Below, piece by piece: positions 1 through 38,533 of a stretch of 38,533 nt of DNA (its first letter is position 1; each line of letters starts with the position of its first letter). The notes below the pieces were generated by a model that was given only the letters and a program-made list of their open reading frames with translations, did not search any database and was not told the origin of the DNA. The translations under genes were made by a program, and so were the position numbers. This DNA is from a virus, in the IMG/VR virus record IMGVR_UViG_3300045988_077292, positions 1-38,533 of that record; one strand, given 5' to 3'.

Positions 1-55
1 AGCGGTGGATGGATAGGTAATGGAGTGTACGATGCATCGTTCACCAGTGACACAG
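1..55. repeat. Terminal overlap copy 1 (identical to 38479-38533)
   Basis: agcggtggatggataggtaatggagtgtacgatgcatcgttcaccagtgacacag occurs at both ends. This is typical of a circular contig closed by a k-mer overlap. Confidence 0.95.
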
Positions 56-4812: not shown

Positions 4813-4826
4813 AATTTTATAAAAAA

Positions 4827-4872
4827 GGGATAAAAAGTGCCATAGAGAAATAGAAGGAGACCCTGCTACAAT
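4827..4872 (+). promoter_or_regulatory. Late promoter cassette 1: 24-bp box GGGATAAAAAGTGCCATAGAGAAA, 13 nt, then TGcTACAAT (extended -10)
   Basis: The same box and the same 13-nt spacing to TGcTATAAT recur at 29270-29315. It sits directly upstream of the scaffold/capsid genes. There is no TTGACA-like -35. Confidence 0.65.
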
Positions 4873-9780: not shown

Positions 9781-11705
<1,925 letters not shown>

Positions 11706-11709
<4 letters not shown>

Positions 11710-17815: not shown

Positions 17816-19408
17816 TTATTTTCTTGGAACACAAAAGCAAAGCAAACTCTGTGTTATAAGAATTCTTGGTGCCGGTGACCCTACACCGTCAATTCTTATA
17901 ACTGTCTCGGAATCATCTGAGAAATCAAAGTCGCCACGGGGCGTGGGGTCAAGCAATGTCCACACTTTTATAAAGTCGGCATGGACTTCCACGCGGACAA
18001 CTATACTCAAAAGCAAATCATCGGTCTCTGGGGACCGGGCAAACATATTGAGAATTTCCCGCAGTTTATCTTCGGAGACTGACGCCCCGGAGACTTGGGC
18101 TTTAAGCTGGAGCATATCATGTTCCAGCTTTGCTTTTTCTGCTTCCAGCTCGGTGAGCTTGGCGGAGAGAGCGGGACTGTTCAGCCCGGACAACACAGCG
18201 TCAACGGCGGCAGCAATGCGCTTGTCAACTGCGCTGCGGCGGGTCACGAGCTGCTGCAGCTTTTCCCCGGCGCTGCCTTGAAGCTTGCTGCGCTCATCAC
18301 GCAGAATAGCCAAAAGATATTCGACATTGGCGGGAAGGCAAAACAGCTCGCGCATAGTGTCAAGCACGCGCACCTCCAAGTCGTCTACACGAATCGGCAT
18401 ACAATCACACTTGCCCTTGCGCTGCTTGGCGGAGCAAGCATAGTAATAGTACTTCCCTTTTGCCTTGGACACGACCATCGCACTTTTGCATTCTCCGCAG
18501 AACACTTTACCCTTGAGCGGGTAGCTGCGCACGACGGGCGCGCGCCCGGCTTGACTTCGTTTGTTCTCTTGCAGCTTGCGTTGCACACGCTCCCATGTAC
18601 ATCTATCTATGATGGCGGGTACGGCGTCCTCAACACGAATGACAGAGGACGCGGAAGCGTGAGAGTTGCGGCTTCCGTCCGGTCGCTTCTCGACTTTACC
18701 ATAGGTGAGAACACCGATATACTTTTCATTCTTGAGTAAGTCATGCAGAGAGTTTGTGCCGAAGGAGTTGCCGGACTTCGTGGTATACCCAGCTTCGTTG
18801 AGCGCGCGGATGATCTCTCTGTACGTCTTGCCCGATGCATACCACTTGAAAATACTGCGGACTATTTCAGCTTCAGCCTCGCACACGACGTAGCGCCCGT
18901 CGACCACGTTATAGCCCAGCGGGGGCTTGCCGCCTGTATGTCTCCCCTGCTGTGCCAGGAAGCGCATCTTCTCCGTGACCTTCTGCCGTGTCTGCAAAAC
19001 CCAGATCTGATTGAAGAGTGCCATGCTCCCCTCGGTCAAGAAGTTTGTGGGGTCGCGCAGGTCTCCGCCAACCATAGGCTGAGTGACGGAGACAACACGC
19101 ACACCAAGGCGCTCGACCTTTTCGCGGAAGTCAAACCACGCCGTCATCTTGCGAAACATACGGGACTGATCATAGATGACCACGGTGTCCGCACTGCCGA
19201 GAGAGAGCTGCCGCATCATGCGGCTGTATTCGGGGCGGTCATCCTTCATTCCGGAAACGGCCATGTCAGCAAACACATCAAGAACTGGCAAGCCGTTAGC
19301 GTCACACCAACGAGAGCATTTCACAACTTGAACTTCTATGCTGTCCTCATCCTGCCGGTCGGTACTATAACGCGCGAGTATGTACGCGCCATGATGAAGC
19401 GTGGTCAT
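17816..19408 (-). CDS. int: Large serine recombinase (integrase), 530 aa from ATG 19408
   Basis: YILARYSTDRQ is the catalytic Ser motif. A resolvase-like N-terminus is followed by a recombinase domain, a zinc ribbon (CGECKSAM...YYYACSAK...KCDC) and a C-terminal coiled coil. ATGA overlap with the upstream gene at 19405-19408. Confidence 0.9.
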   Translation of the reverse strand: MTTLHHGAYILARYSTDRQDEDSIEVQVVKCSRWCDANGLPVLDVFADMAVSGMKDDRPEYSRMMRQLSLGSADTVVIYDQSRMFRKMTAWFDFREKVERLGVRVVSVTQPMVGGDLRDPTNFLTEGSMALFNQIWVLQTRQKVTEKMRFLAQQGRHTGGKPPLGYNVVDGRYVVCEAEAEIVRSIFKWYASGKTYREIIRALNEAGYTTKSGNSFGTNSLHDLLKNEKYIGVLTYGKVEKRPDGSRNSHASASSVIRVEDAVPAIIDRCTWERVQRKLQENKRSQAGRAPVVRSYPLKGKVFCGECKSAMVVSKAKGKYYYYACSAKQRKGKCDCMPIRVDDLEVRVLDTMRELFCLPANVEYLLAILRDERSKLQGSAGEKLQQLVTRRSAVDKRIAAAVDAVLSGLNSPALSAKLTELEAEKAKLEHDMLQLKAQVSGASVSEDKLREILNMFARSPETDDLLLSIVVRVEVHADFIKVWTLLDPTPRGDFDFSDDSETVIRIDGVGSPAPRILITQSLLCFCVPRK

Positions 19409-19887
19409 CCCAGCCACCACGGGAGCGCGCACATGATGGCGGCGCGAGTGCTCACGCCGTAGTGCGTCTGCTCAATGATGGAGCGGCGGATCCATCCCAC
19501 ATTGGGGTTCAGCAGGTCAATAATAAAAAAGATGAGCACAAAGAAAACAAAGGTAACAAGCCCGGCAATGATACGCCCGTACAGCTCCGCGCGATGCCGG
19601 TCACGCCGCGCCTCTGCTTTCAGCTGCACAACAAGCGGGTCATTCGGCACGGTCACAGGCGGCGCGTCGCGGTGAGAGGCGCCGAGAATATCATCCACGC
19701 TGCCGCCGCAGACATTGATAATGTCGCACAGCAGAAAGAAAGATGGATTCTTCGGTTCCTCGCTGAGCACGCGCCGGACTGTCATGCCGGAGACCTCACA
19801 GCGCTTGGCAAGCTCATCGTAGCTCAGCCCGCTGGCAGAAACAAGCGCACGTATTCTCTCCATAACGGTCTCTTCCTTTTGCGTCAT
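19405..19887 (-). CDS. Membrane-anchored XRE-family HTH protein (160 aa), first gene of the integrase operon
   Basis: GGAGGAGGA RBS before ATG 19887. HTH SGLSYDELAKRCEVSGMTVRRVL, and C-terminal TM IIAGLVTFVFFVLIFFIIDLL. Confidence 0.7.
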   Translation of the reverse strand: MTQKEETVMERIRALVSASGLSYDELAKRCEVSGMTVRRVLSEEPKNPSFFLLCDIINVCGGSVDDILGASHRDAPPVTVPNDPLVVQLKAEARRDRHRAELYGRIIAGLVTFVFFVLIFFIIDLLNPNVGWIRRSIIEQTHYGVSTRAAIMCALPWWLG

Positions 19888-20318: not shown

Positions 20319-20355
20319 CCGCCCGGCGCATTAAGCGTCGGGCGGTTTTTTGTTT
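20319..20355 (+). terminator. Strong rho-independent terminator (overlaps the 3' end of the convergent repressor gene)
   Basis: CCGCCCGGCGC attaa GCGTCGGGCGG (11 bp with one G-U pair) followed by TTTTTTGTTTG. Confidence 0.8.
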
Positions 20356-20735
20356 GTATCAGTAGGGAGCTTTTGAAGAAGCTCTAGGAGTTTATCCCAC
20401 TGTTCAACATCTGTGTTACACATAAAATCAATGAGTTTCATTTCAAGCTCATTACCTTTGCCGCTGAGAAGCTTGGTCATGTAGGCAGTTATCTCAGCAG
20501 AGCGGGCAGCGTCCGGATCAAATGTTCCTGCACCATCGCGCAGCCAATCCTCATCAGCTTTGAACTCCCGGCAGATAGAACGAATGGCAACTTCGGACGG
20601 AACACGGACGCCGGATTCCCAAGTCGCAACCGTATTCTGCTTTACGCCAATGCGCTGCCCAAATTCGGCTTGAGAAATATGATGAGCTTTCCGCAAAGAT
20701 TTTATTCGCGCGCCGATTGAATCGACAACAATCAT
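20331..20735 (-). CDS. XRE-family repressor paralog 1 (134 aa)
   Basis: HTH ISQAEFGQRIGVKQNTVATWESG. The C-terminal domain ITAYMTKLLSG..ELEMKLIDFM..DVEQWDKLLEL is shared with the neighbouring gene. Confidence 0.8.
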   Translation of the reverse strand: MIVVDSIGARIKSLRKAHHISQAEFGQRIGVKQNTVATWESGVRVPSEVAIRSICREFKADEDWLRDGAGTFDPDAARSAEITAYMTKLLSGKGNELEMKLIDFMCNTDVEQWDKLLELLQKLPTDTNKKPPDA

Positions 20736-20774
20736 CCCCTTTCAAAATAAATACATCGCCAAGTGATTTTTATA

Positions 20775-20803
20775 TTGACAAACACGAGCTGAAATAATAT
20801 AAT
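20775..20803 (+). promoter_or_regulatory. Perfect consensus sigma-A promoter TTGACA-17-TATAAT, pointing antisense into repressor paralog 2
   Basis: TTGACA at 20775-20780, a 17-nt spacer, TATAAT at 20798-20803. It is flanked by the 9-bp inverted repeat TATATTGAC / GTCAATATA (20771-20779 and 20810-20818). Confidence 0.6.
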
Positions 20804-20831
20804 CACATCGTCAATATAAATATCACAATGT

Positions 20832-21236
20832 CTATTTATTCGGCGGTTTTTCTATTTCGGATATGTTCTTCGCGAGCGGGCGGATGAGTTCGAGGAGCTT
20901 GTCCCACTGGTCAACATCTGTCGCCGCCATGAAGTCTATGAGCTTCTCCTCCAGCTCGGAGCGCTCGCCGGAGAGGAGCTTGCCCATGTAAGCGGCGATC
21001 GCGTCCTTGCGCGAAAGCTCCTTGAACATGGGACCGCCCTCATCGCCGTGCCGCAGCCACAGCTCATTGACACCAAACTCACGGCAGATGTCTGAAATGG
21101 TGCGCTCACTGGGAGTACCGCCACTGACAAGTTTAGATACATACTGCTGAGAGACGTTTATTCTTTTTGCAAAGGCAGTCTTTGTAAGACCTGATTTATC
21201 AACTACCTCGCCTATGCGTTCGTTGATGGTGCTCAT
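20832..21236 (-). CDS. XRE-family repressor paralog 2 (134 aa from ATG 21236)
   Basis: RBS AAGGGGGTG. HTH LTKTAFAKRINVSQQYVSKLVSG. The C-terminus IAAYMGKLLSG..ELEEKLIDFM..DVDQWDKLLEL is paralogous to 20331-20735. Confidence 0.8.
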   Translation of the reverse strand: MSTINERIGEVVDKSGLTKTAFAKRINVSQQYVSKLVSGGTPSERTISDICREFGVNELWLRHGDEGGPMFKELSRKDAIAAYMGKLLSGERSELEEKLIDFMAATDVDQWDKLLELIRPLAKNISEIEKPPNK

Positions 21237-21258
21237 TCTAATCACCCCCTTTGTGCTG

Positions 21259-21287
21259 ACTATATCATGAGGAAAAAACTTTGTCAA
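21259..21287 (-). promoter_or_regulatory. Repressor (lysogenic) promoter TTGACA-17-TGaTATAGT on the minus strand
   Basis: The reverse complement of 21282-21287 is TTGACA, and of 21259-21264 is TATAGT with an upstream TG. It sits about 20 nt upstream of the repressor RBS. Confidence 0.65.
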
Positions 21288-21318
21288 GAAAAAACACAAC
21301 TAAGTGGTGAAAAAATGC

Positions 21319-21347
21319 TTGACAACGAAACTCACGCGTGGTAATAT
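21319..21347 (+). promoter_or_regulatory. Divergent early (lytic) promoter TTGACA-17-TGgTAATAT
   Basis: TTGACA at 21319-21324, a 17-nt spacer ending in TGG, TAATAT at 21342-21347. It is back-to-back with the repressor promoter. Confidence 0.65.
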
Positions 21348-21392: not shown

Positions 21393-21548
21393 ATGAATTT
21401 TGAAGAGCTTGTAAAACTCGTTGTAGGCAACAAACATCTGAGAAGTAGGTGGGACGTTGTAAGTTACCTAATCGGATATAAAAAGATGATAGACGAAACA
21501 GACTGGGAACACATCGAACAAATGTATGTGGATGGTCTCATAGAGTGA
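21393..21548 (+). CDS. Small early protein (51 aa), first ORF after the early promoter
   Basis: TAAGGAG RBS 8 nt before ATG 21393. Its stop abuts the stop of the convergent membrane-protein gene. Confidence 0.45.
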   Translation: MNFEELVKLVVGNKHLRSRWDVVSYLIGYKKMIDETDWEHIEQMYVDGLIE

Positions 21549-22358
21549 TTAGTCATAATCACCGGATGAATAGAAAAGTATCTGAGAGATACCGTGCAGA
21601 CCGTCAGCAAGAAGAGAGTAGAGTTCATCAAAGTCAAGAGCCGCGCCGGTCTCCATACAAGCTTCAAGTAGTTCTTTTCCCTCACGAATGGTATTTAGAT
21701 ATTCATCTATATCCGATAGAAACTCACCCCGATTCCATTCAAAGTCATCTGAGCTATCGACCAGTCCACGCCTAAAACCAGCGCTGTACCCAACGCGGAA
21801 TGAATCGCTCGCTATATCAATGTCTTCACTGGAAAGTTCTAATGCCGGAAACATTTTACCACGCTGATATTCAATCCCCGCGTAAAAGCCAAAGTCAAAG
21901 CCAGAAGAATAGCCATCGGTATATGACAAATGTTCGCGATATTCCATATCGTCATCTGTGTACAAGCCATCATCTAAGGCTGCTTCGTATCCTTCGTTGC
22001 GTGCAGCGGATCTGATTTCACTGATTTCGTCGGCGGTATAGAACAGCTTACCATTAAAAAAACAGATAAACATGGAGAGCGCAAGCAGAACCAGAGAGAC
22101 AGCGAAGATAGATTCAGCTGGATTTTCTTCCGAGTTCTCAGTGTCGCAAAGGCTGTGGCTTACAATCAATGCGAGGACAGAAGTGACACCTAAAGAAAGA
22201 CCAATGATAATTTTAGAAGACACGTCGAAGTGAGACAATACAGCGTTATTGAGGCTAAAGGCACCACCAAAAATGAGAATGTAGAGGAGAATAAACGACC
22301 AACCTTTTGCGAATGCAAACGCAATGTGAATAAAGAATGCAGATAGTTTTTCTTTCAT
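21549..22358 (-). CDS. Multi-pass membrane protein with an acidic cytoplasmic domain carrying GYxxGFxxG repeats (269 aa from ATG 22358); prophage moron, candidate exclusion/abortive-infection factor
   Basis: About 4 hydrophobic helices in the N-terminal 115 aa. The C-terminus has GYEAALDDG, GYSSGFDFG and GYSAGFRRG. The region is visibly AT-rich compared with the rest of the genome. It has the same orientation as the repressors. Confidence 0.7.
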   Translation of the reverse strand: MKEKLSAFFIHIAFAFAKGWSFILLYILIFGGAFSLNNAVLSHFDVSSKIIIGLSLGVTSVLALIVSHSLCDTENSEENPAESIFAVSLVLLALSMFICFFNGKLFYTADEISEIRSAARNEGYEAALDDGLYTDDDMEYREHLSYTDGYSSGFDFGFYAGIEYQRGKMFPALELSSEDIDIASDSFRVGYSAGFRRGLVDSSDDFEWNRGEFLSDIDEYLNTIREGKELLEACMETGAALDFDELYSLLADGLHGISQILFYSSGDYD

Positions 22359-22402
22359 AGCGAAAAATCCTTTCAAAAAATGTAATGGAGGCGAGCGGGA
22401 TG
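22356..22402. repeat. Bidirectional leader cassette copy 1: CATAGCGAAAAATCCTTTCaAAAAATGTAATGGAGGCGAGCGGGATG
   Basis: The left end is the reverse-complement ATG plus leader of the minus-strand gene. The right end is GGAGG-8 nt-ATG of the + strand gene. It recurs at 23001-23046. Confidence 0.85.
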
Positions 22403-22831
22403 AAATTTAATTATGAGCGTTTGAGCAAAAAGATTAAAGAAAAATATCGAGCGCAAGATGCGTTCGCGAAAGTGATTGGGATAACACGCACATCGCTATC
22501 CTACAAGCTAAACGGGAAAAGCTCTTGGCACGCGGATGAGATGTACAAGGTATGCAAAGCGCTCGACATACCGCTGAAAGAAATCCCACGGTATTTTTTT
22601 GAGCCCAAAGGCTCAGTGGCAGAGGCGCAAAGCGCGAGGATGCGAGAACTGAGCAGAGGAGAAGCAGCCGCAGCGGCGCTGACGATGCTGCTGGGTTACA
22701 CGAGGGACATCAACCAGAGGCGCAGACTTGAGTACGGCGACAGCGGGGACGCGGTGCTGGCGTTCAATGAAGAAGCGCTGGAGGAAGCGCTGCGCTGCGT
22801 GGAACTGGTCAACGATTCCGAATGCTATTGA
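22400..22831 (+). CDS. XRE-family HTH early regulator (Cro/antirepressor-like, 143 aa from ATG 22400)
   Basis: GGAGG sits 8 nt before ATG 22400. HTH AQDAFAKVIGITRTSLSYKLNGKSSW. Confidence 0.7.
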   Translation: MKFNYERLSKKIKEKYRAQDAFAKVIGITRTSLSYKLNGKSSWHADEMYKVCKALDIPLKEIPRYFFEPKGSVAEAQSARMRELSRGEAAAAALTMLLGYTRDINQRRRLEYGDSGDAVLAFNEEALEEALRCVELVNDSECY

Positions 22832-23003
22832 AAATCTCGAAAGCCCTGTTCCGGCAGACTGTGGTGCATTCTTTATAGCATGGTTGATAAGTATCACACC
22901 CAGCAAAAGCATAGCGATCATCCAGCGGATAAGGCAATAGGTAGACATCAACGTGATTGAAATGAACAGGGCAGAGCACGTTTATAGTGACGGTCTTTTT
23001 CAT
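22809..23003 (-). CDS. Small 4-5 Cys protein B (64 aa)
   Basis: It starts with the conserved leader GAAAGGATTTTTCGCT-ATG. Its Cys spacing is like that of 23457-23693. The 3' end overlaps the convergent HTH gene by 23 nt. Confidence 0.45.
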   Translation of the reverse strand: MKKTVTINVLCPVHFNHVDVYLLPYPLDDRYAFAGCDTYQPCYKECTTVCRNRAFEIFNSIRNR

Positions 23004-23046
23004 AGCGAAAAATCCTTTCTAAAAATGTAATGGAGGCGAGCGGGTG
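23001..23046. repeat. Bidirectional leader cassette copy 2 (1 mismatch and a 1-nt deletion that converts the ATG to GTG)
   Basis: catagcgaaaaatcctttctaaaaatgtaatggaggcgagcgggtg, read directly and compared with copy 1. Confidence 0.85.
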
Positions 23047-23227
23047 TTTGCACTGGAAAAGAAGCAACTGTACATAGTGCAAGAGCCATTGAGGAAAAAT
23101 CGCAGTTGCCAAAGCTATAGGTGGAAACAGGTTCTTCTTTGCGAAGATAAGCAACCACTTATCGAGATACTTAATGCGCAGAGCAGCCCTAGAGATTGGC
23201 GGGTTATCCCACTCGGGGACAGCGCAG

Positions 23228-23245
23228 ATGGAGGCGAGCGGGATG
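23228..23245 (+). repeat. Right-half leader copy (ATGGAGGCGAGCGGGATG) in front of gene 23243
   Basis: 18-nt identity with the right halves of copies 1 and 2. Confidence 0.8.
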
Positions 23246-23476
23246 GAAGTAATACAGATCAGTGCAGCGCAGAGAACAGCGCTGCAAGCAGCGCGAAGCA
23301 ATGAGCAACCGCGCCCAATGTCAAGCATGGCAGAGACAGTGCTGAATGCGACGAACGTGTGGAACTGGCTGCACAAGGACAGAGAGACGCCGCCGAGTGT
23401 GCTTAAAGCATTCGACGATATATGCGAGCAGCTGAACGTGCCGTATGTGATAGACGTCACCACGGTGGAGAGTTGA
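23243..23476 (+). CDS. Small early protein with a degenerate XRE-like HTH (77 aa)
   Basis: GGAGG-8 nt-ATG identical to the 22400 start. AETVLNATNVWNWLHKDRETPPSVLKAFDDICEQLNVP resembles the recognition-helix half of XRE domains. Confidence 0.55.
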   Translation: MEVIQISAAQRTALQAARSNEQPRPMSSMAETVLNATNVWNWLHKDRETPPSVLKAFDDICEQLNVPYVIDVTTVES

Positions 23477-23693
23477 GATAAGGAAAGCCGGGAATTTCGT
23501 TACGCTGGCGATCTTCAAGGCGGGCAATCAAAAGCTTGAGAGCAGTGACCGCGCAGTCTTGGCAGGTTTGAGAACCGTTTGAATCTTCACAGTAATTGGG
23601 GAGCGGAATCCCGTCCTCGGTAACAACGAAGTAAAAAGTTTTTTCGCGCCCGTAGTCGGCGCGGCAAGGGACCGTGACACGCGGTTGAGCCAT
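23457..23693 (-). CDS. Small 4-Cys protein B' (78 aa), paralog-like of 22809-23003
   Basis: Same leader GAAAGGATTTTTCGCT-ATG. Pattern VTV.C-x24-C-x7-C-x2-C. The 3' end overlaps the convergent gene by 20 nt. Confidence 0.5.
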   Translation of the reverse strand: MAQPRVTVPCRADYGREKTFYFVVTEDGIPLPNYCEDSNGSQTCQDCAVTALKLLIARLEDRQRNEIPGFPYLNSPPW

Positions 23694-23710
23694 AGCGAAA
23701 AATCCTTTCT
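23691..23710. repeat. Left-half leader copy 3 (CATAGCGAAAAATCCTTTCT)
   Basis: 20-nt identity with 23001-23020. Confidence 0.85.
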
Positions 23711-23766
23711 ATATATTTTTTATCATCATAGCACAGCAATTACCAACAAACAAGGAGGAAATACAA

Positions 23767-23949
23767 ATGGGTGCAAATGAAGAGAGCAGAGCTGACGCTC
23801 TGGCAATGGTATGCAATGGGCTGCCGGACGAGCAGGTGAGCTACGTCCGCGGAGTGCTGGACGGCATGAGGATGGCAGCACCGAAGAGAAAGGAGGACGG
23901 CCATGCCGATAGTGATAACGAGGACAGGTCCGCTGTCAGTGATAGATGA
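23767..23949 (+). CDS. Small early protein (60 aa)
   Basis: CAAGGAGGAAATACAA ATG. Confidence 0.5.
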   Translation: MGANEESRADALAMVCNGLPDEQVSYVRGVLDGMRMAAPKRKEDGHADSDNEDRSAVSDR

Positions 23950-24058
23950 CGGTGGGGTGAACGAGGCGGCGATCACAGAAATGTGGGGCGTACTCCTTCG
24001 GAAGTATGTGCAGCAGCACCCGGAGGTATGGGACACGCCGCCAAGCGCGGCGATATAA
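23903..24058 (+). CDS. Small early protein (51 aa, MPIVITRTGPLSVIDDGGVNEAAITEMWGVLLRKYVQQHPEVWDTPPSAAI)
   Basis: AAGGAGGA sits 5 nt before ATG 23903. It is below the track cutoff and overlaps the previous ORF by 47 nt. Confidence 0.45.
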   Translation: MPIVITRTGPLSVIDDGGVNEAAITEMWGVLLRKYVQQHPEVWDTPPSAAI

Positions 24059-24068
24059 GGAGGAGAGC

Positions 24069-24317
24069 ATGGAAACGATCATATCATTCATAGGCGGGCT
24101 GAGCGTCGGGGAGACCGCGGCGCTTGCCCTTGGCATAGTGGCGGCGCTGTTTATGGTTCCGCCGCTTGTCATAGCGGCGGTGCAGCACGTGGACAAGGTA
24201 GTGCACAGCTGCACGGACAGGATAGACTATGACCCCGGCTGGATGGACGCAAAGTACTATCGGCAGATGGAGCGCGAGGAGCGCGCGGCCGGCCGGACAT
24301 GGAGGCGCGGGGCATGA
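24069..24317 (+). CDS. Small membrane protein (82 aa)
   Basis: TAAGGAGGAGAGC ATG. Hydrophobic segment LSVGETAALALGIVAALFMVPPLVIAAV. Confidence 0.6.
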   Translation: METIISFIGGLSVGETAALALGIVAALFMVPPLVIAAVQHVDKVVHSCTDRIDYDPGWMDAKYYRQMEREERAAGRTWRRGA

Positions 24318-24538
24318 GAGTGTGGCTGTGTGACGCGCACAAAAAGATGCACTACTGCGGCGGGAGCATGGTCAAGGTGAGCGGCTACGGTGCGTGCAGT
24401 GTCGAGGGCTGCACCGCCACGGCACATGAATACATATTCATTCCGCCTCGCGAGTTCGGCAAGAGCAAGGCGGCAACGGATAAATATCCCACGAGAAACA
24501 CAAGAGCACAATACAAAGGTGACTGGAGGAGAACATAA
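24314..24538 (+). CDS. Small Cys-rich (zinc-finger-like) protein (74 aa)
   Basis: ATGA coupling at 24314. Sequence is MRVWLCDAHKKMHYCGG...CSVEGC. Confidence 0.55.
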   Translation: MRVWLCDAHKKMHYCGGSMVKVSGYGACSVEGCTATAHEYIFIPPREFGKSKAATDKYPTRNTRAQYKGDWRRT

Positions 24539-25003: not shown

Positions 25004-25294
25004 ATGTACGAAGGAAAGTATGTAATCGTTCGCGGGGATCGTTCCGGCGTTTTTGCTGGGACACTGAAAGCCAAGGAGAGGCGCGAAGTCGAGCTGACCG
25101 ACTGCCGACGCATCTGGTATTGGGATGGTGCTGCAAGCATATCTCAGCTGGCGGTTGACGGCACAAGCGCGGCTGCCTCCTGCAAGTTCCCCGTGCCGGT
25201 AGCGTCAATAGTGATTACAGATGTGATCGAGATAATCCCCTGCACGGAGAAAGCGGAAGCCTCCATTAAGGCGGTGAAGGAATGGAAGAGATAA
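25004..25294 (+). CDS. Hypothetical early protein (96 aa); contains the left arm of the 31-bp inverted repeat
   Basis: AAGGAGAAGAATC ATG, clean ORF. Confidence 0.6.
   Translation: MYEGKYVIVRGDRSGVFAGTLKAKERREVELTDCRRIWYWDGAASISQLAVDGTSAAASCKFPVPVASIVITDVIEIIPCTEKAEASIKAVKEWKR
25127..25157. repeat. Inverted repeat, left arm GGTGCTGCAAGCATATCTCAGCTGGCGGTTG
   Basis: It is the perfect reverse complement of 25389-25419 (31/31), checked base by base. Confidence 0.95.
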
Positions 25295-25920
25295 AGCTGC
25301 GGGAATTTCTGCACGTAGATTTTACCGGCGACGGCGACGGCTCCGGCTCCGGCTACGGCTACGGCATAAAAAACTGTATCCACTCTTGCAACCGCCAGCT
25401 GAGATATGCTTGCAGCACCCCCGGCTCCGGCTACGGCTACGGCTACGTCTCCGGCATAAAATCAATATGCGGCATGGCGGTCAATATGATAGACGGCGTG
25501 CCGACTATCATCACACACCTACACGGCAACGTGGCCAAGGGCTTTATAGTCGATTCAGATATGTCAATGACCACAACGTTTGTTGTAAAGGGGCAGAATC
25601 TGTTTGCCCATGGTGCGACACTCGCAGAAGCGGTGGCAGCACTGGAAGAAAAGATCATGGAGAACCTGCCGGTAGAAGAACGACTTAAGGCGTTCAAGGC
25701 AAAATTCAGCCCCGGCAAGACCTACACCGTGGCAGAGTTTTACGACTGGCATCATCGCTTGACAGGCAGCTGCACGCAGGGACGGGACCATTTTGCACAA
25801 GAACACAGGCTGTCGATGGACGACCCAATGACCCCGGAAGAGTTTATCCAGTTGACCAAGGACGCATACGGCGGCGCGGTCATTCGGCAGCTCGCCGAGT
25901 ATTACGGAGAGGAGAAATAG
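25282..25920 (+). CDS. Hypothetical early protein with GSGSGYGYG repeats (212 aa); contains the right arm of the inverted repeat
   Basis: Clean ORF that overlaps the previous gene by 13 nt. Confidence 0.6.
   Translation: MEEIKLREFLHVDFTGDGDGSGSGYGYGIKNCIHSCNRQLRYACSTPGSGYGYGYVSGIKSICGMAVNMIDGVPTIITHLHGNVAKGFIVDSDMSMTTTFVVKGQNLFAHGATLAEAVAALEEKIMENLPVEERLKAFKAKFSPGKTYTVAEFYDWHHRLTGSCTQGRDHFAQEHRLSMDDPMTPEEFIQLTKDAYGGAVIRQLAEYYGEEK
25389..25419. repeat. Inverted repeat, right arm CAACCGCCAGCTGAGATATGCTTGCAGCACC
   Basis: Perfect reverse complement of 25127-25157. It is flanked by 21-bp direct repeats GGCTCCGGCTACGGCTACGGC at 25345 and 25423. Confidence 0.95.
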
Positions 25921-29262: not shown

Positions 29263-29269
29263 AAAAATA

Positions 29270-29315
29270 GGGATAAAAAGTGCCATAGAGAAAAGCGCAT
29301 CGACCTTGCTATAAT
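29270..29315 (+). promoter_or_regulatory. Late promoter cassette 2: GGGATAAAAAGTGCCATAGAGAAA, 13 nt, then TGcTATAAT
   Basis: The 24-bp box and its spacing are identical to 4827-4872. It lies upstream of the packaging genes. Confidence 0.7.
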
Positions 29316-37600: not shown

Positions 37601-38533
37601 TCGTTGCCGCCGTGCGCAACACCGAGGCGGTTTCCGATAACGGCACGGAGGAAAGCGGCCAGACAGGATGGGTGCGCAATTCCAGCAGGGAAAGCAGCAC
37701 AAATACAACAGGTATAAAAGAGCAGATAGAAGAGAATCGTGACAGGCTTAACAGCATGGACGTGGTAGCAGTTGCAACTGTTCCTACAGACCTAGGAAAC
37801 TTCGACGCAGTAACAGCGTGGGCGATGAAGGAATTAAAGCGCACGGGTTATGCGGTAGACAAGCCGGGATTCGGGAGAATAATATTTGATGAGCGGCAGA
37901 TACGGAACGGTGTGAAGTACGCAAAAACGCCAGCAGAGAAAGCGGCGTTTGCTGTTCTTGACAAAGTGCTGAAACGCGGCGTAGAAATAGGCGCGCACGG
38001 CAACCACAAGAACAGGGAGAAAGAAACTGTCACATTCGCAGCGCCAGTTGAGTTGAACAACATACGGGGTAATATGGCGGTTGTGGTAAACAGAAGGGGC
38101 AACACTTACTACGCGCACCGCATTGTACTTCCCGATGGAACGGAGTTTCGATTCACAGAAAAAAAGGATGCAGTACAAGGACCGAAACGGGGAGTTACCC
38201 GAACGGGCTCTCTTGCCGAATCCACAAGTACTACATCCGAGAATAATATACCACAGCCCGTCGAGGAAAGCAATACCAAATATTCCAGGCGAGAGCTGGA
38301 TGAAGATTTGCAGAAGAGGTACCCCCAGCTGAATTTGAACGAAGACATTTCGGAGCTTGACGGTGTACCAGCAATAGAACTGACAGATGGCAGCATTCTC
38401 CCAATAAAGGACAGAGAACGATATAGAACTCATGTATCATTCATAGAAGGGAATCGAATAGATGTAGATGACTTGCGCAGCGGTGGATGGATAGGTAATG
38501 GAGTGTACGATGCATCGTTCACCAGTGACACAG
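34681..38533 (+). CDS. N-terminal 1266 unique codons of the giant 2852-aa polyvalent-type virion protein (runs off the window end, continues at nt 1)
   Basis: AAGGAGG at 34667-34673 sits 7 nt before GTG 34681. I translated every codon to 38533 and found no stop. Hydrophobic segments lie near 35520-35580 and 36060-36130, and HELTH is at 37216-37230. Confidence 0.85.
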   Translation, partial: MSTRAEREENIARVREEREENIARARGEEYTGSSGQGTSAASRGSSGSSAWKKGSIPKGFVKNPLAFAGGIKPVDTRPSVVSMARAPFEYAAQQRQKEAEIQDLNQKYKQAYLDYNSARRAVTAASKGKSTANYDVAKSKMTEASKLVDAYKKRVEEAGGALWTPTNWLDTVKWSARAGLTSADSAIAKGLDWAVGGFADELRTLAGVTANDISPALADSAANLATKAGRLINPNYTYGENNFLKQYVEEGNRRINVQHEEMARAASDSKAAQTVGKYTEMIMNSLPMSAMALLSGGTTAAAQATTEALQAASTLANSSRAAQIVTPILKATTDMAKDPNWGFTFMSVVGDSYENALADGASEDQASLYAILNAAYNATTEIGGSDEMLGGLQKLPKNIRDALERADNSVLLQIVKGIPSEIGEEIVQGIGESGLKSTYKNVPVYSATDEGAMINPSRMKDEALGAAVVSAVLGGGQSAIGAGTYAIENGIAQRQYRNKVAQTYGGSAAELVESGLESAPGTKSRTLAEAYKAKLDSGKSLTPRELTNLVKANEEAIRAESAAEASTVQGTDDTSEMVTSPAQTQNVTEERTPVQTAASTQTAEKAPTGVYEAKYKGQTGDVVAFARQGDSFAMRIKMPDGTRRDVMENQVTLDPATREMLDTVRPYDYGDEILTSYRAAENGDNFKLFTQAFTTVADLYGKETTVTAEQAYADSVKNGGAATVLTREQFNKAFDIGRSSRDARVVNTAARQRGSGNVYFNKVVDFGGERYAAATEDMVSADELSVIKTIAKTAGVDVVFYQSETDMSGRYVGANGFMRNGTMYLDVNAGATRTTEQSAVLLTAAHELTHYIRENNAEGYAQLRDFVTQNLIKDGVNIEKLAEQKIAREDGTLSMDEAVEEVIADSCETMLEDTKFPELMAKENPGLCEQIRDWLADFTEKLRRAFSGVKARHEEARAMLNYAEELHELWDNALVAAVRNTEAVSDNGTEESGQTGWVRNSSRESSTNTTGIKEQIEENRDRLNSMDVVAVATVPTDLGNFDAVTAWAMKELKRTGYAVDKPGFGRIIFDERQIRNGVKYAKTPAEKAAFAVLDKVLKRGVEIGAHGNHKNREKETVTFAAPVELNNIRGNMAVVVNRRGNTYYAHRIVLPDGTEFRFTEKKDAVQGPKRGVTRTGSLAESTSTTSENNIPQPVEESNTKYSRRELDEDLQKRYPQLNLNEDISELDGVPAIELTDGSILPIKDRERYRTHVSFIEGNRIDVDDLRSGGWIGNGVYDASFTSDT
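34696..34761 (+). repeat. 2 x 33-bp tandem duplication inside the giant gene (EREENIARVRE / EREENIARARG)
   Basis: gaacgggaagagaacatagcgcgtg is repeated in phase, with 25 of 33 leading nt identical. Confidence 0.9.
38479..38533. repeat. Terminal overlap copy 2 (identical to 1-55)
   Basis: Exact 55-nt identity with the window start, read directly. Confidence 0.95.

What the first reader, a model, noticed from the sequence alone, without database searches (positions are those of the whole stretch)
22356..23710. Start-associated leader cassettes reused three or four times in the early region
CATAGCGAAAAATCCTTTC is the reverse complement of GAAAGGATTTTTCGCT-ATG. It forms the 5' leader plus start codon of three minus-strand genes (membrane protein 22358, 64-aa 23003, 78-aa 23693). 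ATGGAGGCGAGCGGG(A)TG forms the RBS plus start of three + strand positions (22400, 23044, 23243). Copies 1 and 2 share the whole 44-bp bidirectional unit with one mismatch. Copy 2 has lost one A, turning ATG into an out-of-register GTG, and the sequence downstream (23044-23240) looks like decayed coding sequence.

The pattern recalls the start-associated sequences of cluster K mycobacteriophages and the module-boundary sequences that promote cassette shuffling. It could also be a shared target for a translational regulator.
Basis: seen in the sequence. Interest (0 to 1): 0.65.

Follow-up and report, generated by a model that had tools for sequence, protein, structure and literature searches.

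The report
Repeated gene-start sequences bracket swappable phage cassettes
Two short ribosome-binding-site-plus-start-codon sequences are repeated in the early region of a gut temperate phage, and related phages from other samples have gained, lost and swapped small genes exactly at these repeats, which makes this a clean natural example of a known way that phage genomes become mosaic.

Summary
CATAGCGAAAAATCCTTTC (motif A) occurs exactly three times (22356, 23001, 23691; 0 expected). ATGGAGGCGAGCGGG (motif B) occurs exactly three times (22385, 23030, 23228). A and B lie back to back as a 47-bp unit, present twice with one mismatch.

I recovered 12 structural variants of this locus from about 23 independent gut metagenome assemblies. 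Motif A precedes the start codon of at least 8 unrelated leftward genes. Motif B precedes 4-5 different rightward ORFs. Left and right contexts reassort freely at the motifs. Some variants lack exactly the DNA between two B copies (22406-23227). Others lack the DNA between two A copies, and others stack two cassettes through a clean A·B junction.

The units contain no promoter, terminator or RNA structure. The 13 aligned A·B units vary only in spacer columns, apart from the 1-nt deletion in window copy 2.

A more distant phage has a single, diverged unit between homologues of the same two flanking genes, so the multiplication is derived.

Best reading: these are standardised translation-initiation regions that act as short homology "linkers" for unequal or homologous recombination, swapping ORFan cassettes next to the immunity region. 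They work like T4 PeSLs and lambdoid boundary sequences but consist of gene starts only. They are not cluster K SAS. Interest is moderate.

The parts
21549..22358 (-). 269-aa membrane protein gene (MKEKLSAFF...). It is the leftmost motif-A gene and an ORFan, belonging to a mosaic family of membrane- or lipid-anchored proteins that share a YTxDE..IR..A..GY..G motif.
22356..22374 (-). Motif A copy 1. Read on the minus strand it is GAAAGGATTTTTCGCT-ATG, i.e. SD, 9-nt spacer and start codon of the 269-aa gene.
22375..22384 (.). A-rich linker (AAAAAATGTA) joining A and B in the 47-bp back-to-back unit.
22385..22402 (+). Motif B copy 1: ATGGAGGCGAGCGGG-ATG, i.e. GGAGG SD, 8-nt spacer and start of the DUF739 HTH gene.
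22400..22831 (+). 143-aa DUF739 / Cro-C1-type HTH protein. With the 64-aa ORF it forms cassette 1. Some variants carry only its C-terminal 63 aa, fused to motif B.
22809..23003 (-). 64-aa Cys-rich ORF, convergent with the HTH gene and overlapping it by 23 nt. It always travels with that gene. Its coding status is uncertain.
23001..23019 (-). Motif A copy 2, the start region of the 64-aa ORF.
23030..23046 (+). Motif B copy 2 with a 1-nt deletion (GGG-TG). The GTG at 23044 opens an 86-aa ORF.
23047..23227 (.). A stub of about 183 bp of unknown origin between B copy 2 and B copy 3. It occurs only in window-type genomes, is open in two frames, and its coding status is undecidable.
23228..23245 (+). 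Motif B copy 3, the start region of the 77-aa gene. Homology to the other copies begins exactly at 23228.
23243..23476 (+). 77-aa gene (cassette 2, plus-strand member). It has 8 alleles and dN/dS 0.26. A distant homologue sits next to the membrane-gene homologue in outgroup L063.
23457..23693 (-). 78-aa gene (cassette 2, minus-strand member). All 5 polymorphic sites are synonymous third positions. It is an ORFan.
23691..23709 (-). Motif A copy 3, the start region of the 78-aa gene. It abuts the conserved leader of the 60-aa early gene.
23710..23766 (.). Conserved leader of the 60-aa gene, which forms the right border of the cassette slot. On the minus strand it carries a candidate extended -10 promoter (TTGTTT-17-TGcTATGAT; -10 at 23730-23725) that could drive the motif-A genes.
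   Evidence: Read from the sequence. Conservation is shown. The consensus scan did not report it because its -35 is weak.
23767..23949 (+). 60-aa early gene, the conserved right anchor of the variable slot.
24299..24316 (+). Diverged B-like sequence ATGGAGGCGCGGGGC-ATG (15/18) ending in the start codon of a 74-aa gene. It may be an older copy but is not significant on its own.

Best explanation
Motif A and motif B are standardised translation-initiation regions, each consisting of a Shine-Dalgarno core, a spacer and a start codon. A serves leftward genes and B serves rightward genes. Back to back they form a 47-bp junction unit. In this lineage of gut temperate phages, the unit or its halves brackets small ORFan cassettes, typically one rightward and one leftward gene that converge. 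The cassettes lie in a slot between the immunity region and the first conserved early gene.

The same 19-47 bp flank unrelated genes. Homologous or unequal recombination between copies therefore deletes, stacks and swaps cassettes, and every product regenerates an intact gene start on both sides. Such recombination could occur within one genome, between replicating copies, or between co-resident relatives.

Shown here:
- the repeats exist;
- they are associated with gene starts across relatives;
- left and right contexts reassort, and deletion and stacking junctions lie at the motifs;
- promoter, terminator and RNA structure are absent from the units;
- the 77-aa and 78-aa genes are under purifying selection;
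- an outgroup has a single diverged unit.

Inferred:
- the motifs work as ribosome-binding sites;
- the exchanges are by homology-dependent recombination;
- the leftward genes are read from a promoter in the 60-aa gene leader, and the rightward genes from the switch promoter at 21319-21347.
For: Repeats exist far above chance.

I recovered 12 structural variants from about 23 samples made with different assemblers.

Gene-start association in relatives:
- A sits at the ATG of the 269-aa, 212+-aa, 133-aa, 139-aa, 101-aa, 317-aa, 64-aa and 78-aa ORFs. A variant with a 2-nt-shorter spacer sits at a 127-aa winged-helix gene.
- B sits at the ATG of the 143-aa ORF, its 63-aa C-terminal derivative, the 77-aa ORF and a 56-aa ORF.

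Junctions at the motifs:
- L015 and L016 lack 22406-23227, and the junction is the B repeat.
- L007-9 share only 22342-23021 with the window and then continue directly into the sequence that follows A copy 3. They therefore lack the DNA between A copies 2 and 3.
- L023 and L030 stack both cassettes through a clean A·B unit.
- In window coordinates, 7 of about 10 distinct breakpoints inside the slot lie within 15 nt of a motif. Most of the rest lie at the 3' ends of convergent genes.
- 5 left contexts and 4 right contexts occur in many combinations at A, and SNPs inside the unit reassort with both flanks.

No other signal in the units:
- no sigma-70-like promoter or terminator;
- no RNA structure, z from -0.9 to +2.4;
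- no Rfam family.

Among the 13 aligned A·B units only spacer columns vary, apart from the 1-nt deletion in window copy 2. The SD cores never vary.

Coding evidence: 5 of 5 polymorphisms in the 78-aa gene are synonymous, and the 77-aa gene has dN/dS 0.26.

Outgroup L063 (membrane-protein homologue 44% identical, with a tyrosine integrase) has one diverged unit between homologues of the 269-aa and 77-aa genes and no repeats.

Elsewhere the 19-mer occurs only as unrelated singletons.
Against: - No expression, ribosome or recombination data exist, so RBS function and the recombination pathway are inferred.
- No single-strand-annealing recombinase was recognised in the phage (Pfam annotations). 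Short-homology exchange would therefore depend on host RecA or an unrecognised factor.
- Some junctions are not at motifs. Examples are the 63-aa derivative at 22638, 3'-end junctions near 23482 and 23523, and B truncated in L018. Illegitimate or microhomology events therefore also act here.
- Variants come from metagenome assemblies, and strain-switching chimeras would also join at shared sequence.
- The 64-aa ORF has weak coding signal.
- At least one B copy, and possibly two, may have no real gene behind it: window copy 2, and L020 copy 2, whose 56-aa ORF is wholly antisense to a 127-aa gene.
Confidence: 0.75

Rival explanations
1. The motifs are kept identical because they are operators for a shared trans-acting regulator, either protein or RNA, that co-ordinates translation of the leftward set against the rightward set. 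This would resemble what was proposed for cluster K SAS/ESAS. Recombination at the motifs would then be a by-product.
For: - The B spacer CGAGCGGG cannot pair with 16S rRNA, yet it is nearly invariant, with one C>T.
- The core CCTTTCAAAAAAT is identical (13/13) in outgroup L063, although the flanking proteins are only about 44% identical.
- The two motif classes map one-to-one onto the two strands.
Against: - The A spacer varies freely (GAAAT, AAGAT, GAGAA, GAATT, and a form 2 nt shorter) and is entirely different in L063.
- Pooled diversity of the unit (0.044 per site) is about the same as synonymous diversity in flanking genes. The identity therefore needs no extra constraint.
- No RNA structure.
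- No candidate RNA-binding protein was identified.
Confidence: 0.1
2. The repeats are passive scars. One or two unequal crossovers duplicated the divergent intergenic region. The copies have no continuing role in exchange, and later variation arose by illegitimate recombination.
For: - The outgroup has one unit, so duplication happened.
- Several junctions are not at motifs.
- The stub at 23047-23227 and the truncated B in L018 indicate illegitimate events.
Against: - At least 9 different left-by-right context combinations occur at A, and several occur at B. SNPs inside the unit reassort with both flanks. That requires repeated independent crossovers inside the motifs.
- Deletion variants remove exactly the repeat-to-repeat intervals.
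Confidence: 0.07
3. The 47-bp unit is a duplicated bidirectional promoter/operator of the genetic switch.
For: - It lies between divergent genes, one of which encodes a Cro-like HTH protein.
- The linker is A/T-rich.
Against: - Only 41 bp separate the two start codons.
- No -35/-10 pair was found in any unit, whereas strong consensus promoters and an operator-like palindrome lie at 20763-20826 and 21259-21347 next to the repressor genes.
- Variants without the HTH gene keep the unit.
Confidence: 0.03
4. The units are sites for a site-specific recombinase, either integron-attC-like or targets of the phage serine recombinase, and cassettes move by site-specific excision and integration.
For: - The layout resembles a cassette array.
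- A large serine recombinase is encoded at 17816-19432.
Against: - Crossover points are scattered: in the first codons, inside A, in the linker, inside B and after the ATG.
- The unit has no dyad symmetry or hairpin.
- There is no integron-type tyrosine integrase.
- A separate imperfect inverted repeat next to the recombinase gene (17853-17902) is the likelier attP.
Confidence: 0.03
5. The structural variants are artefacts of metagenome assembly, produced by chimeric joins between co-occurring strains at shared short sequences.
For: - Any strain-switching chimera would join at shared sequence.
- Several variants are known only from Logan contigs.
Against: - The shared motifs (19-47 bp) are shorter than the final k of the MEGAHIT assemblies (contig names k141_...).
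- Within genomes, the paralogous units share less than 31 identical consecutive bases.
- The same junction types recur in independent samples and assemblers. Examples are the window type in at least 5 samples, 269-aa|77-aa in 2 samples, and 101-aa|A·B in ENA and Logan assemblies.
- The window itself carries three copies in a circularly closed 38.5-kb contig.
Confidence: 0.02

Closest known systems
PeSLs (promoter-early stem-loops), the mobile regulatory cassettes of T4-type phages (Arbiol et al. 2010, PMC2839356; Comeau et al. 2014, PMC4122927)
   Same: - Short repeated expression signals that end in an SD and start codon.
- Concentrated in a hyperplastic region full of ORFans.
- Insertions, deletions and replacements between close relatives have their junctions at the repeats.
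- Recombination between nearby direct copies would excise a cassette carrying one copy.
   Different: - PeSLs are defined by a strong sigma-70 promoter plus a stem-loop terminator. The units here have neither and consist of translation-initiation regions only.
- The units here are bidirectional, serving genes on both strands, and bracket convergent gene pairs.
- The host phage is a small temperate phage of an uncultured gut bacterium.
- Mini-circles were not tested.
Short conserved boundary (linker) sequences at module junctions of lambdoid phages. This is the modular-evolution model, cited in PMC3029335 as refs 21-22. That paper also reports a ~50-bp repeat deletion/insertion between mycobacteriophages Island3 and Brujita.
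   Same: Short sequences shared at gene boundaries let general recombination reassort otherwise unrelated modules. The unequal-crossover signature is also shared: one genome has the DNA between two repeats and a relative has a single repeat.
   Different: - Here the linkers are multiplied within one genome (3+3 copies in 1.4 kb).
- They have an evident primary function as gene starts.
- Many reassortants are seen within one near-clonal population, rather than among distant phages.
Start-associated sequences (SAS/ESAS) of cluster K mycobacteriophages (Pope et al. 2011, PMC3203893)
   Same: A repeated, asymmetric sequence containing an SD core, placed immediately upstream of start codons of non-structural genes from different protein families.
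   Different: - Different sequence; the SAS consensus is absent.
- SAS occur 11-19 times across the whole right arm, in one orientation. Here there are 3+3 copies in one 1.4-kb slot, with one motif per strand.
- SAS positions outside the SD are strictly conserved and suggest a binding factor. Here the spacer positions vary.
- SAS were not linked to recombination breakpoints.
Integron gene cassettes (attC / attI / IntI)
   Same: An array of small, mostly ORFan, promoterless cassettes separated by a repeated junction element, with a variable number of cassettes.
   Different: - No tyrosine integron integrase.
- No attC-type imperfect palindrome or folded single strand.
- Crossover points are scattered through the repeat.
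- Cassettes hold two convergent genes, and the junction supplies the ribosome-binding sites.
Moron / prophage-expressed accessory loci next to the immunity region, e.g. lambda rex and sieB, and the variable central defence loci of cluster N mycobacteriophages (recalled from my own knowledge, not checked here)
   Same: The position between the repressor and the early lytic genes. The content is membrane proteins, lipoprotein-like proteins and small ORFans that differ between close relatives.
   Different: Those loci are not described as bracketed by a repeated bidirectional gene-start unit. A defence or exclusion function is not shown here (no PADLOC system hit).

Membership tests
Cluster K start-associated sequences (SAS) | 13-bp consensus GGGATAGGAGCCC (up to 2 deviations) | tested here: not met
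   0 matches in the window with up to 2 mismatches.
Cluster K start-associated sequences (SAS) | Located within a few bases upstream of the start codons of genes from different families | tested here: met
   A and B each end in the start codon. A precedes at least 8 unrelated ORFs and B precedes 4-5.
Cluster K start-associated sequences (SAS) | 11-19 copies spread over the non-structural half of the genome, essentially in one orientation | tested here: not met
   3 A and 3 B copies, all within 22356-23709. One motif type serves each strand, and there are none elsewhere in 38.5 kb.
Cluster K start-associated sequences (SAS) | Strong conservation of positions that cannot pair with 16S rRNA, implying a binding factor | tested here: inconclusive
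   The A spacer varies at 4 columns and is replaced in L063. The B spacer is nearly invariant, but the sample is shallow.
PeSL mobile regulatory cassettes (T4-type phages) | Strong sigma-70-type early promoter inside the repeat | tested here: not met
   No promoter-like site in 22340-22420 or 22985-23065. Only a weak 9/12 match overlaps A copy 3, and its -35 lies in gene-specific sequence.
PeSL mobile regulatory cassettes (T4-type phages) | Stable stem-loop acting as terminator or attenuator | tested here: not met
   Folding of all three units on both strands gives z = -0.9 to +2.4. No terminator-like site lies in the units.
PeSL mobile regulatory cassettes (T4-type phages) | SD and start codon at the 3' end of the repeat; located upstream of ORFans in hyperplastic regions | tested here: met
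   The cassette proteins have no homologues outside the lineage.
PeSL mobile regulatory cassettes (T4-type phages) | Indels and replacements between close relatives have their junctions at the repeats | tested here: met
PeSL mobile regulatory cassettes (T4-type phages) | Excised mini-circles carrying one repeat | not testable with these tools
   This needs outward-facing PCR or read-level analysis of induced lysates.
Boundary/linker sequences of the modular model of phage evolution | Short sequence shared at the junction of otherwise unrelated modules | tested here: met
   Identity starts and stops within a few bases of the motifs, and the flanking genes are unrelated.
Boundary/linker sequences of the modular model of phage evolution | Natural recombinants in which modules on either side reassort at that sequence | tested here: met
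   5 left by 4 right contexts at A, and deletion and stacking variants.
Boundary/linker sequences of the modular model of phage evolution | Exchange depends on homologous recombination functions | not testable with these tools
   This needs genetics in recA+/- hosts. No phage annealing recombinase was recognised.
Integron cassettes | IntI-type tyrosine integrase with attI | tested here: not met
   The only recombinase is a large serine recombinase (Resolvase / Recombinase / Zn_ribbon_recom) at 17816-19432.
Integron cassettes | attC: imperfect inverted repeat that folds as a single strand | tested here: not met
   No significant fold in any unit.

The most novel reading that the evidence does not exclude
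The A·B unit is more than a passive linker. It would be a dedicated "socket" of a recombinase-independent, integron-like cassette system. Each cassette would add one gene to a leftward (prophage-expressed) operon and one to a rightward (early lytic) operon that run antisense through each other. The invariant non-SD positions (the B spacer and the CCTTTCAAAAAAT core that is conserved even in the outgroup) would be read by a phage or host factor. That factor would couple translation of the two sets to the lysis-lysogeny state, or would stimulate exchange.
Probability: 0.12. Interest if true: 0.7.

Novelty: new variant of a known kind. Interest (0 to 1): 0.45.

Why it matters
[quoted passage not shown] Clear examples of boundary sequences are few.

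This locus provides many reassortants, deletions and stackings at the same 19-47-bp gene-start sequences within one near-clonal population of a human-gut temperate phage. An outgroup gives the ancestral single-copy state.

It also suggests a simple design principle. If the linker is itself the ribosome-binding site and start codon, on both strands, every recombinant is born with working gene starts, so ORFan cassettes can be tried out at low cost.

In practice, the motifs could be used as anchors to harvest the cassette repertoire of this phage group from metagenomes. That repertoire may include exclusion or defence genes next to the immunity region.

Tried and rejected
- DNA similarity of 21400-24100 to 50,697 GenBank phages: no match.
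- Exact 19-mer scan of IMG/VR: 0 hits. The exact 18-mer gave 2 hits (L001, L002), which showed no similarity to the window.
- Exact 19-mer scans of GTDB genomes (10 hits) and JGI metagenomes (16 hits): all are single copies in unrelated DNA, often at some other gene's start. The host was therefore not identified and no relatives were found there.
- The nearest GenBank record by large terminase (MT835607, 58% aa identity) shares structural genes only and has no motif.
- Homologue searches:
  - the 60-aa gene has only 4 clusters, all within the lineage;
  - the 78-aa gene has 1 cluster;
  - the 269-aa protein matches only itself in the word-based search, and the full HMMER search of 1.8 billion representatives gave 7 hits, of which one was useful.
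- Pfam, PHROGs, PADLOC and PDB sequence searches of the cassette proteins gave nothing beyond generic HTH or winged-helix hits.
- Rfam on the window region and on five variant loci found nothing; the single snoRNA match at E = 0.71 is chance.
- A promoter/operator reading of the unit is rejected. An RNA-structure reading is rejected. A simple tandem duplication is rejected because the intervals between copies (645 and 690 bp) share no homology.
- I could not trace the origin of the 183-bp stub at 23047-23227.
- I looked for a phage single-strand-annealing recombinase among the early genes. I found only VRR-NUC, a replication initiator, an NTP pyrophosphohydrolase and HTH proteins.
- Structure prediction was not used. 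The cassette proteins have no alignments deep enough to give reliable models.


Full report
**1. The observation**

The 19-mer CATAGCGAAAAATCCTTTC (motif A) occurs exactly three times, at 22356, 23001 and 23691. No further match appears even at 3 mismatches, and none is expected by chance. ATGGAGGCGAGCGGG (motif B) occurs exactly three times, at 22385, 23030 and 23228. A and B lie back to back. The 47-nt unit 22353-22399 recurs at 22998-23044 with one mismatch.

Read on the minus strand, A is GAAAGGATTTTTCGCT-ATG, that is an SD, a 9-nt spacer and a start codon. B is GGAGG, an 8-nt spacer and ATG.

The A copies end in the start codons of three minus-strand ORFs: 269 aa (21549-22358), 64 aa (22809-23003) and 78 aa (23457-23693). 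B copies 1 and 3 end in the start codons of a 143-aa DUF739 / Cro-type HTH protein (22400-22831) and a 77-aa ORF (23243-23476). Gene callers used on independent assemblies picked these same starts.

B copy 2 has lost one A. The resulting GTG (23044) still opens a stop-free 86-aa ORF. The 183 bp that follow match nothing in any relative. They are open in two frames with neutral codon scores. "Decayed coding sequence" therefore cannot be confirmed.

**2. Context**

The window is a circularly closed temperate phage genome of about 38.5 kb; bases 1-55 equal bases 38479-38533. The relevant features, from left to right, are:
- a large serine recombinase (17816-19432);
- an HTH/TM protein;
- two paralogous XRE repressors (20331-20735 and 20832-21239);
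- consensus-grade divergent promoters at 21259-21347;
- the repeat region;
- a conserved 60-aa early gene (23767);
- VRR-NUC, a replication initiator, terminase and portal.

The repeats therefore occupy the slot between the immunity region and the early genes.

**3. Relatives**

No GenBank phage, IMG/VR contig, GTDB genome or JGI metagenome contig carries this locus. The 19-mer occurs there only as unrelated singletons.

Exact-protein look-ups in ENA and Logan assemblies recovered near-identical phages from about 23 gut samples. Their conserved parts are 93-100% identical to the window, but the slot has 12 different structures.

In the list below, "<" marks a leftward gene, ">" a rightward gene, and "J" the leader of the 60-aa gene.

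| Variant | Structure of the slot |
|---|---|
| window | <269 \| A·B \| 143> <64 \| A·B' \| stub \| B \| 77> <78 \| A \| J |
| L007-9 | <212+ \| A·B \| 143> <64 \| A \| J |
| L015 | <269 \| A·B \| 77> (contig ends) |
| L016 | <269 \| A·B \| 77> \| ORF-less element \| J |
| L019 | <101 \| A·B \| 77> <78 \| A \| J |
| L023 | <317 \| A·B \| 63> <64 \| A·B \| 77> <78 \| A \| J |
| L030 | <101 \| A·B \| 63> <64 \| A·B \| 77> <78 \| A \| J |
| L020 | <139 \| A·B \| 77> <31-aa remnant of the 78-aa gene \| A·B \| <127 winged-helix \| A' \| J |
| L017, L024 | <133 or <139 lipoprotein-like \| A \| J |
| L025 | <317 \| A \| 109> (own RBS) <22-aa remnant \| A·B \| 77> <78 \| A \| J |
| L018 | <101 \| A·B \| 63> <64 \| A·B (truncated) \| ORF-less element \| J |

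**4. What the variants show**

(a) Start association holds in relatives. A, or a variant with a 2-nt-shorter spacer, precedes nine different leftward ORFs. B precedes four or five rightward ORFs.

(b) Contexts reassort at the motifs.
- Five kinds of left flank occur at A: MKEKLS..., MKKTV..., MAQPR..., MTTLA... and MKCFD....
- Four kinds of right flank occur at A: linker plus B, the J leader, a gene with its own RBS, and a truncated B.
- These are found in many combinations.
- SNPs inside the unit (columns 11, 20, 26 and 37) reassort with both flanks, which places crossovers inside the unit.

(c) Repeat-to-repeat intervals are gained or lost as blocks.
- L015 and L016 lack 22406-23227, with the junction in B.
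- L007-9 run from the 64-aa ORF's A copy straight into the sequence that follows A copy 3 in the window.
- L023 and L030 are what an unequal crossover between an "...<64 | A | J" genome and a "... | A·B | 77>..." genome would give.

(d) Breakpoints cluster at the motifs. In window coordinates, 7 of about 10 distinct breakpoints within the slot lie within 15 nt of a motif. Zones of that width cover about 17% of the slot, giving a rough binomial p of about 3e-4, though the events are not independent. Most of the rest fall at the 3' ends of the convergent gene pairs.

(e) Not every event uses the motifs. The 63-aa gene is the 143-aa gene minus its HTH domain. It was made by a 255-bp deletion that joins B's ATG to an internal ATG, which is preceded by a B-like GCGCGAGGATG. 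The 31-aa and 22-aa remnants, the stub and the truncated B also show illegitimate or microhomology events.

**5. What the unit is not**

- It contains no sigma-70-like promoter or terminator.
- It has no significant RNA fold on either strand, with z from -0.9 to +2.4, which suits an accessible initiation region.
- It matches no Rfam family.
- It has no dyad symmetry of the kind expected for a recombinase site. A separate inverted repeat next to the recombinase gene is the likelier attP.

The 13 aligned A·B units vary in 7 of 47 columns. Six of these are spacer columns. The seventh is the 1-nt deletion in window copy 2. The SD cores and the remaining start-codon positions never vary. Pooled diversity is 0.044 per site, about equal to synonymous diversity in the flanking genes (0.05-0.085). 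Paralogous copies are therefore as alike as neutral orthologous sites. This fits recent or continuing exchange between copies and needs no constraint beyond the SD and the start codon.

**6. Are the small genes real?**

- 78-aa minus-strand gene: 4 DNA alleles with 5 polymorphic sites, all synonymous third positions.
- 77-aa gene: 8 alleles, dN/dS 0.26, and 14 of 22 polymorphisms at third positions.
- 64-aa ORF: 3 polymorphisms and a poor codon score. It always accompanies the C-terminal part of the HTH gene, and its status is open.

All cassette proteins are ORFans with no informative family, defence-system or PDB match. The leftmost genes form a mosaic family of membrane- or lipid-anchored proteins sharing a YTxDE..IR..A..GY..G motif.

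**7. Outgroup**

The only useful distant homologue of the 269-aa protein (44% identity) lies in a different phage, L063. That phage has a tyrosine integrase and a repressor about 56% identical to the window's. There the membrane gene and a distant homologue of the 77-aa gene are divergent neighbours. The homology covers 42% identity over the C-terminal 26 aa, pairwise E = 2e-6.

The two genes are separated by a single unit, CATAGTAACCAACCTTTCAAAAAATATAGGGGGAGCGAAATG. It has the same architecture as the window unit. CATAG and CCTTTCAAAAAAT are identical to the window unit, the rest has diverged, and there are no repeats.

The 269|77 adjacency seen in L015 and L016 is therefore ancestral. The multiplication of the unit, with cassettes inserted between copies, is derived in the window lineage.

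**8. Mechanism proposed**

A and B are the translation-initiation regions of two interleaved gene sets on opposite strands. Because they are shared, they serve as 19-47-bp homology tracts for unequal or homologous recombination. That recombination deletes, stacks and swaps cassettes, and every product keeps intact gene starts on both sides.

The following steps are inferred, not shown:
- The leftward genes may be read from a candidate extended -10 promoter in the conserved leader of the 60-aa gene. Read by eye, it is TTGTTT-17-TGcTATGAT on the minus strand, with the -10 at 23730-23725 and a weak -35.
- The rightward genes may be read from the switch promoter at 21319-21347, running antisense through the leftward genes.
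- No annealing-type recombinase was recognised, so host RecA or an unknown phage function would be needed.

**9. Comparison with known systems**

Functionally this is closest to T4-type PeSLs (PMC2839356) and to the boundary sequences of the modular model (as cited in PMC3029335). It fails the two defining PeSL features, the promoter and the stem-loop. It is therefore a variant made only of gene starts, bidirectional, and found in a temperate phage.

It resembles cluster K SAS (PMC3203893) only in being start-associated. The consensus, copy number, distribution, orientation and conservation pattern all differ. It is not an integron.

**10. Verdict**

The cassette-boundary interpretation is supported by natural variants. 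The SAS and regulator readings are not supported. The finding is a new variant of a known kind and of moderate interest.

The main caveats are that all variants come from metagenome assemblies, that the host is unknown, and that there are no expression or recombination data.

Noticed in passing
L018:5555-5955 and L016:75-489 (related loci, not in the window): An ORF-less, GC-rich element of about 412 nt with 31-nt terminal inverted repeats replaces the 78-aa-gene cassette and the left part of the 60-aa gene leader. It occurs in two different left contexts: after the 77-aa gene in L016, and after a truncated B motif in L018/L022. It folds far better than shuffles on both strands (z about -7), driven by the long closing helix. 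It has no Rfam match. It could be a MITE-like element or a structured RNA.
   Followed up: partly
window 25127-25157 and 25389-25419: A perfect 31-nt inverted repeat. Arm 1 lies in the DUF6948 gene and is present in all relatives. Arm 2 sits inside the Gly/Ser/Tyr repeat of the next gene. In the other variants whose contigs reach that position, the arm-2 query aligned only in reverse to arm 1, and in L003-type contigs the forward alignment is gapped, so arm 2's absence there is not established. It looks like a templated (strand-switch) insertion rather than an invertible segment.
   Followed up: partly
window 1-55 and 38479-38533: Identical 55-nt terminal direct repeat. This is the assembly overlap of a circular or circularly permuted genome of about 38,478 bp.
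   Followed up: no
window 4821-4850 and 29264-29293: A 30-nt repeat AAAA[A/T]AGGGATAAAAAGTGCCATAGAGAAA (97% identical) in two intergenic gaps: after the 1578-aa ORF and upstream of the small terminase gene. It may be a late-gene regulatory signal.
   Followed up: no
window 20331-21347: Two paralogous XRE repressor genes (about 70% identical over 107 nt) with consensus-grade promoters (20775-20803 at 12/12, 21287-21259, 21319-21347) and a 17-nt palindrome pair (20763-20779 / 20810-20826). Relatives carry one or two repressors of different types (132, 134, 135 or 140 aa), and L015 has a single recombinant copy. The immunity region itself is therefore also modular.
   Followed up: partly
window 21549-22358; L007, L017, L020, L023: The leftmost slot genes (269, 212+, 133, 139 and 317 aa) share the first six codons (MKEKLS or MTTLA) and an internal YTxDE..IR..A..GY..G.D.GY motif, but have different anchors (multi-TM or lipobox LPLCGC) and swapped C-termini. 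They form a mosaic ORFan family, plausibly surface or exclusion proteins.
   Followed up: partly
window 9781-11709: A 642-aa ORF with extensive collagen-like GXY nucleotide and protein repeats (14 copies of a 9-nt-phased family), probably a tail fibre.
   Followed up: no
window 17853-17902: An imperfect inverted repeat GTTATAAGAATTCTTGGTG / CACCGTCAATTCTTATAAC, 12 nt apart, just downstream of the serine recombinase gene. It is a candidate attP core. In L003/L060 an IS (DDE_Tnp_1 transposase) follows the recombinase gene.
   Followed up: no
window 24069-24538 and relatives: A second small variable spot. The 82-aa plus 74-aa gene pair, whose 74-aa gene starts at a B-like ATGGAGGCGCGGGGCATG, is replaced in other variants by 84-aa plus 57/64-aa genes. 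DNA methylase genes come and go after VRR-NUC.
   Followed up: no
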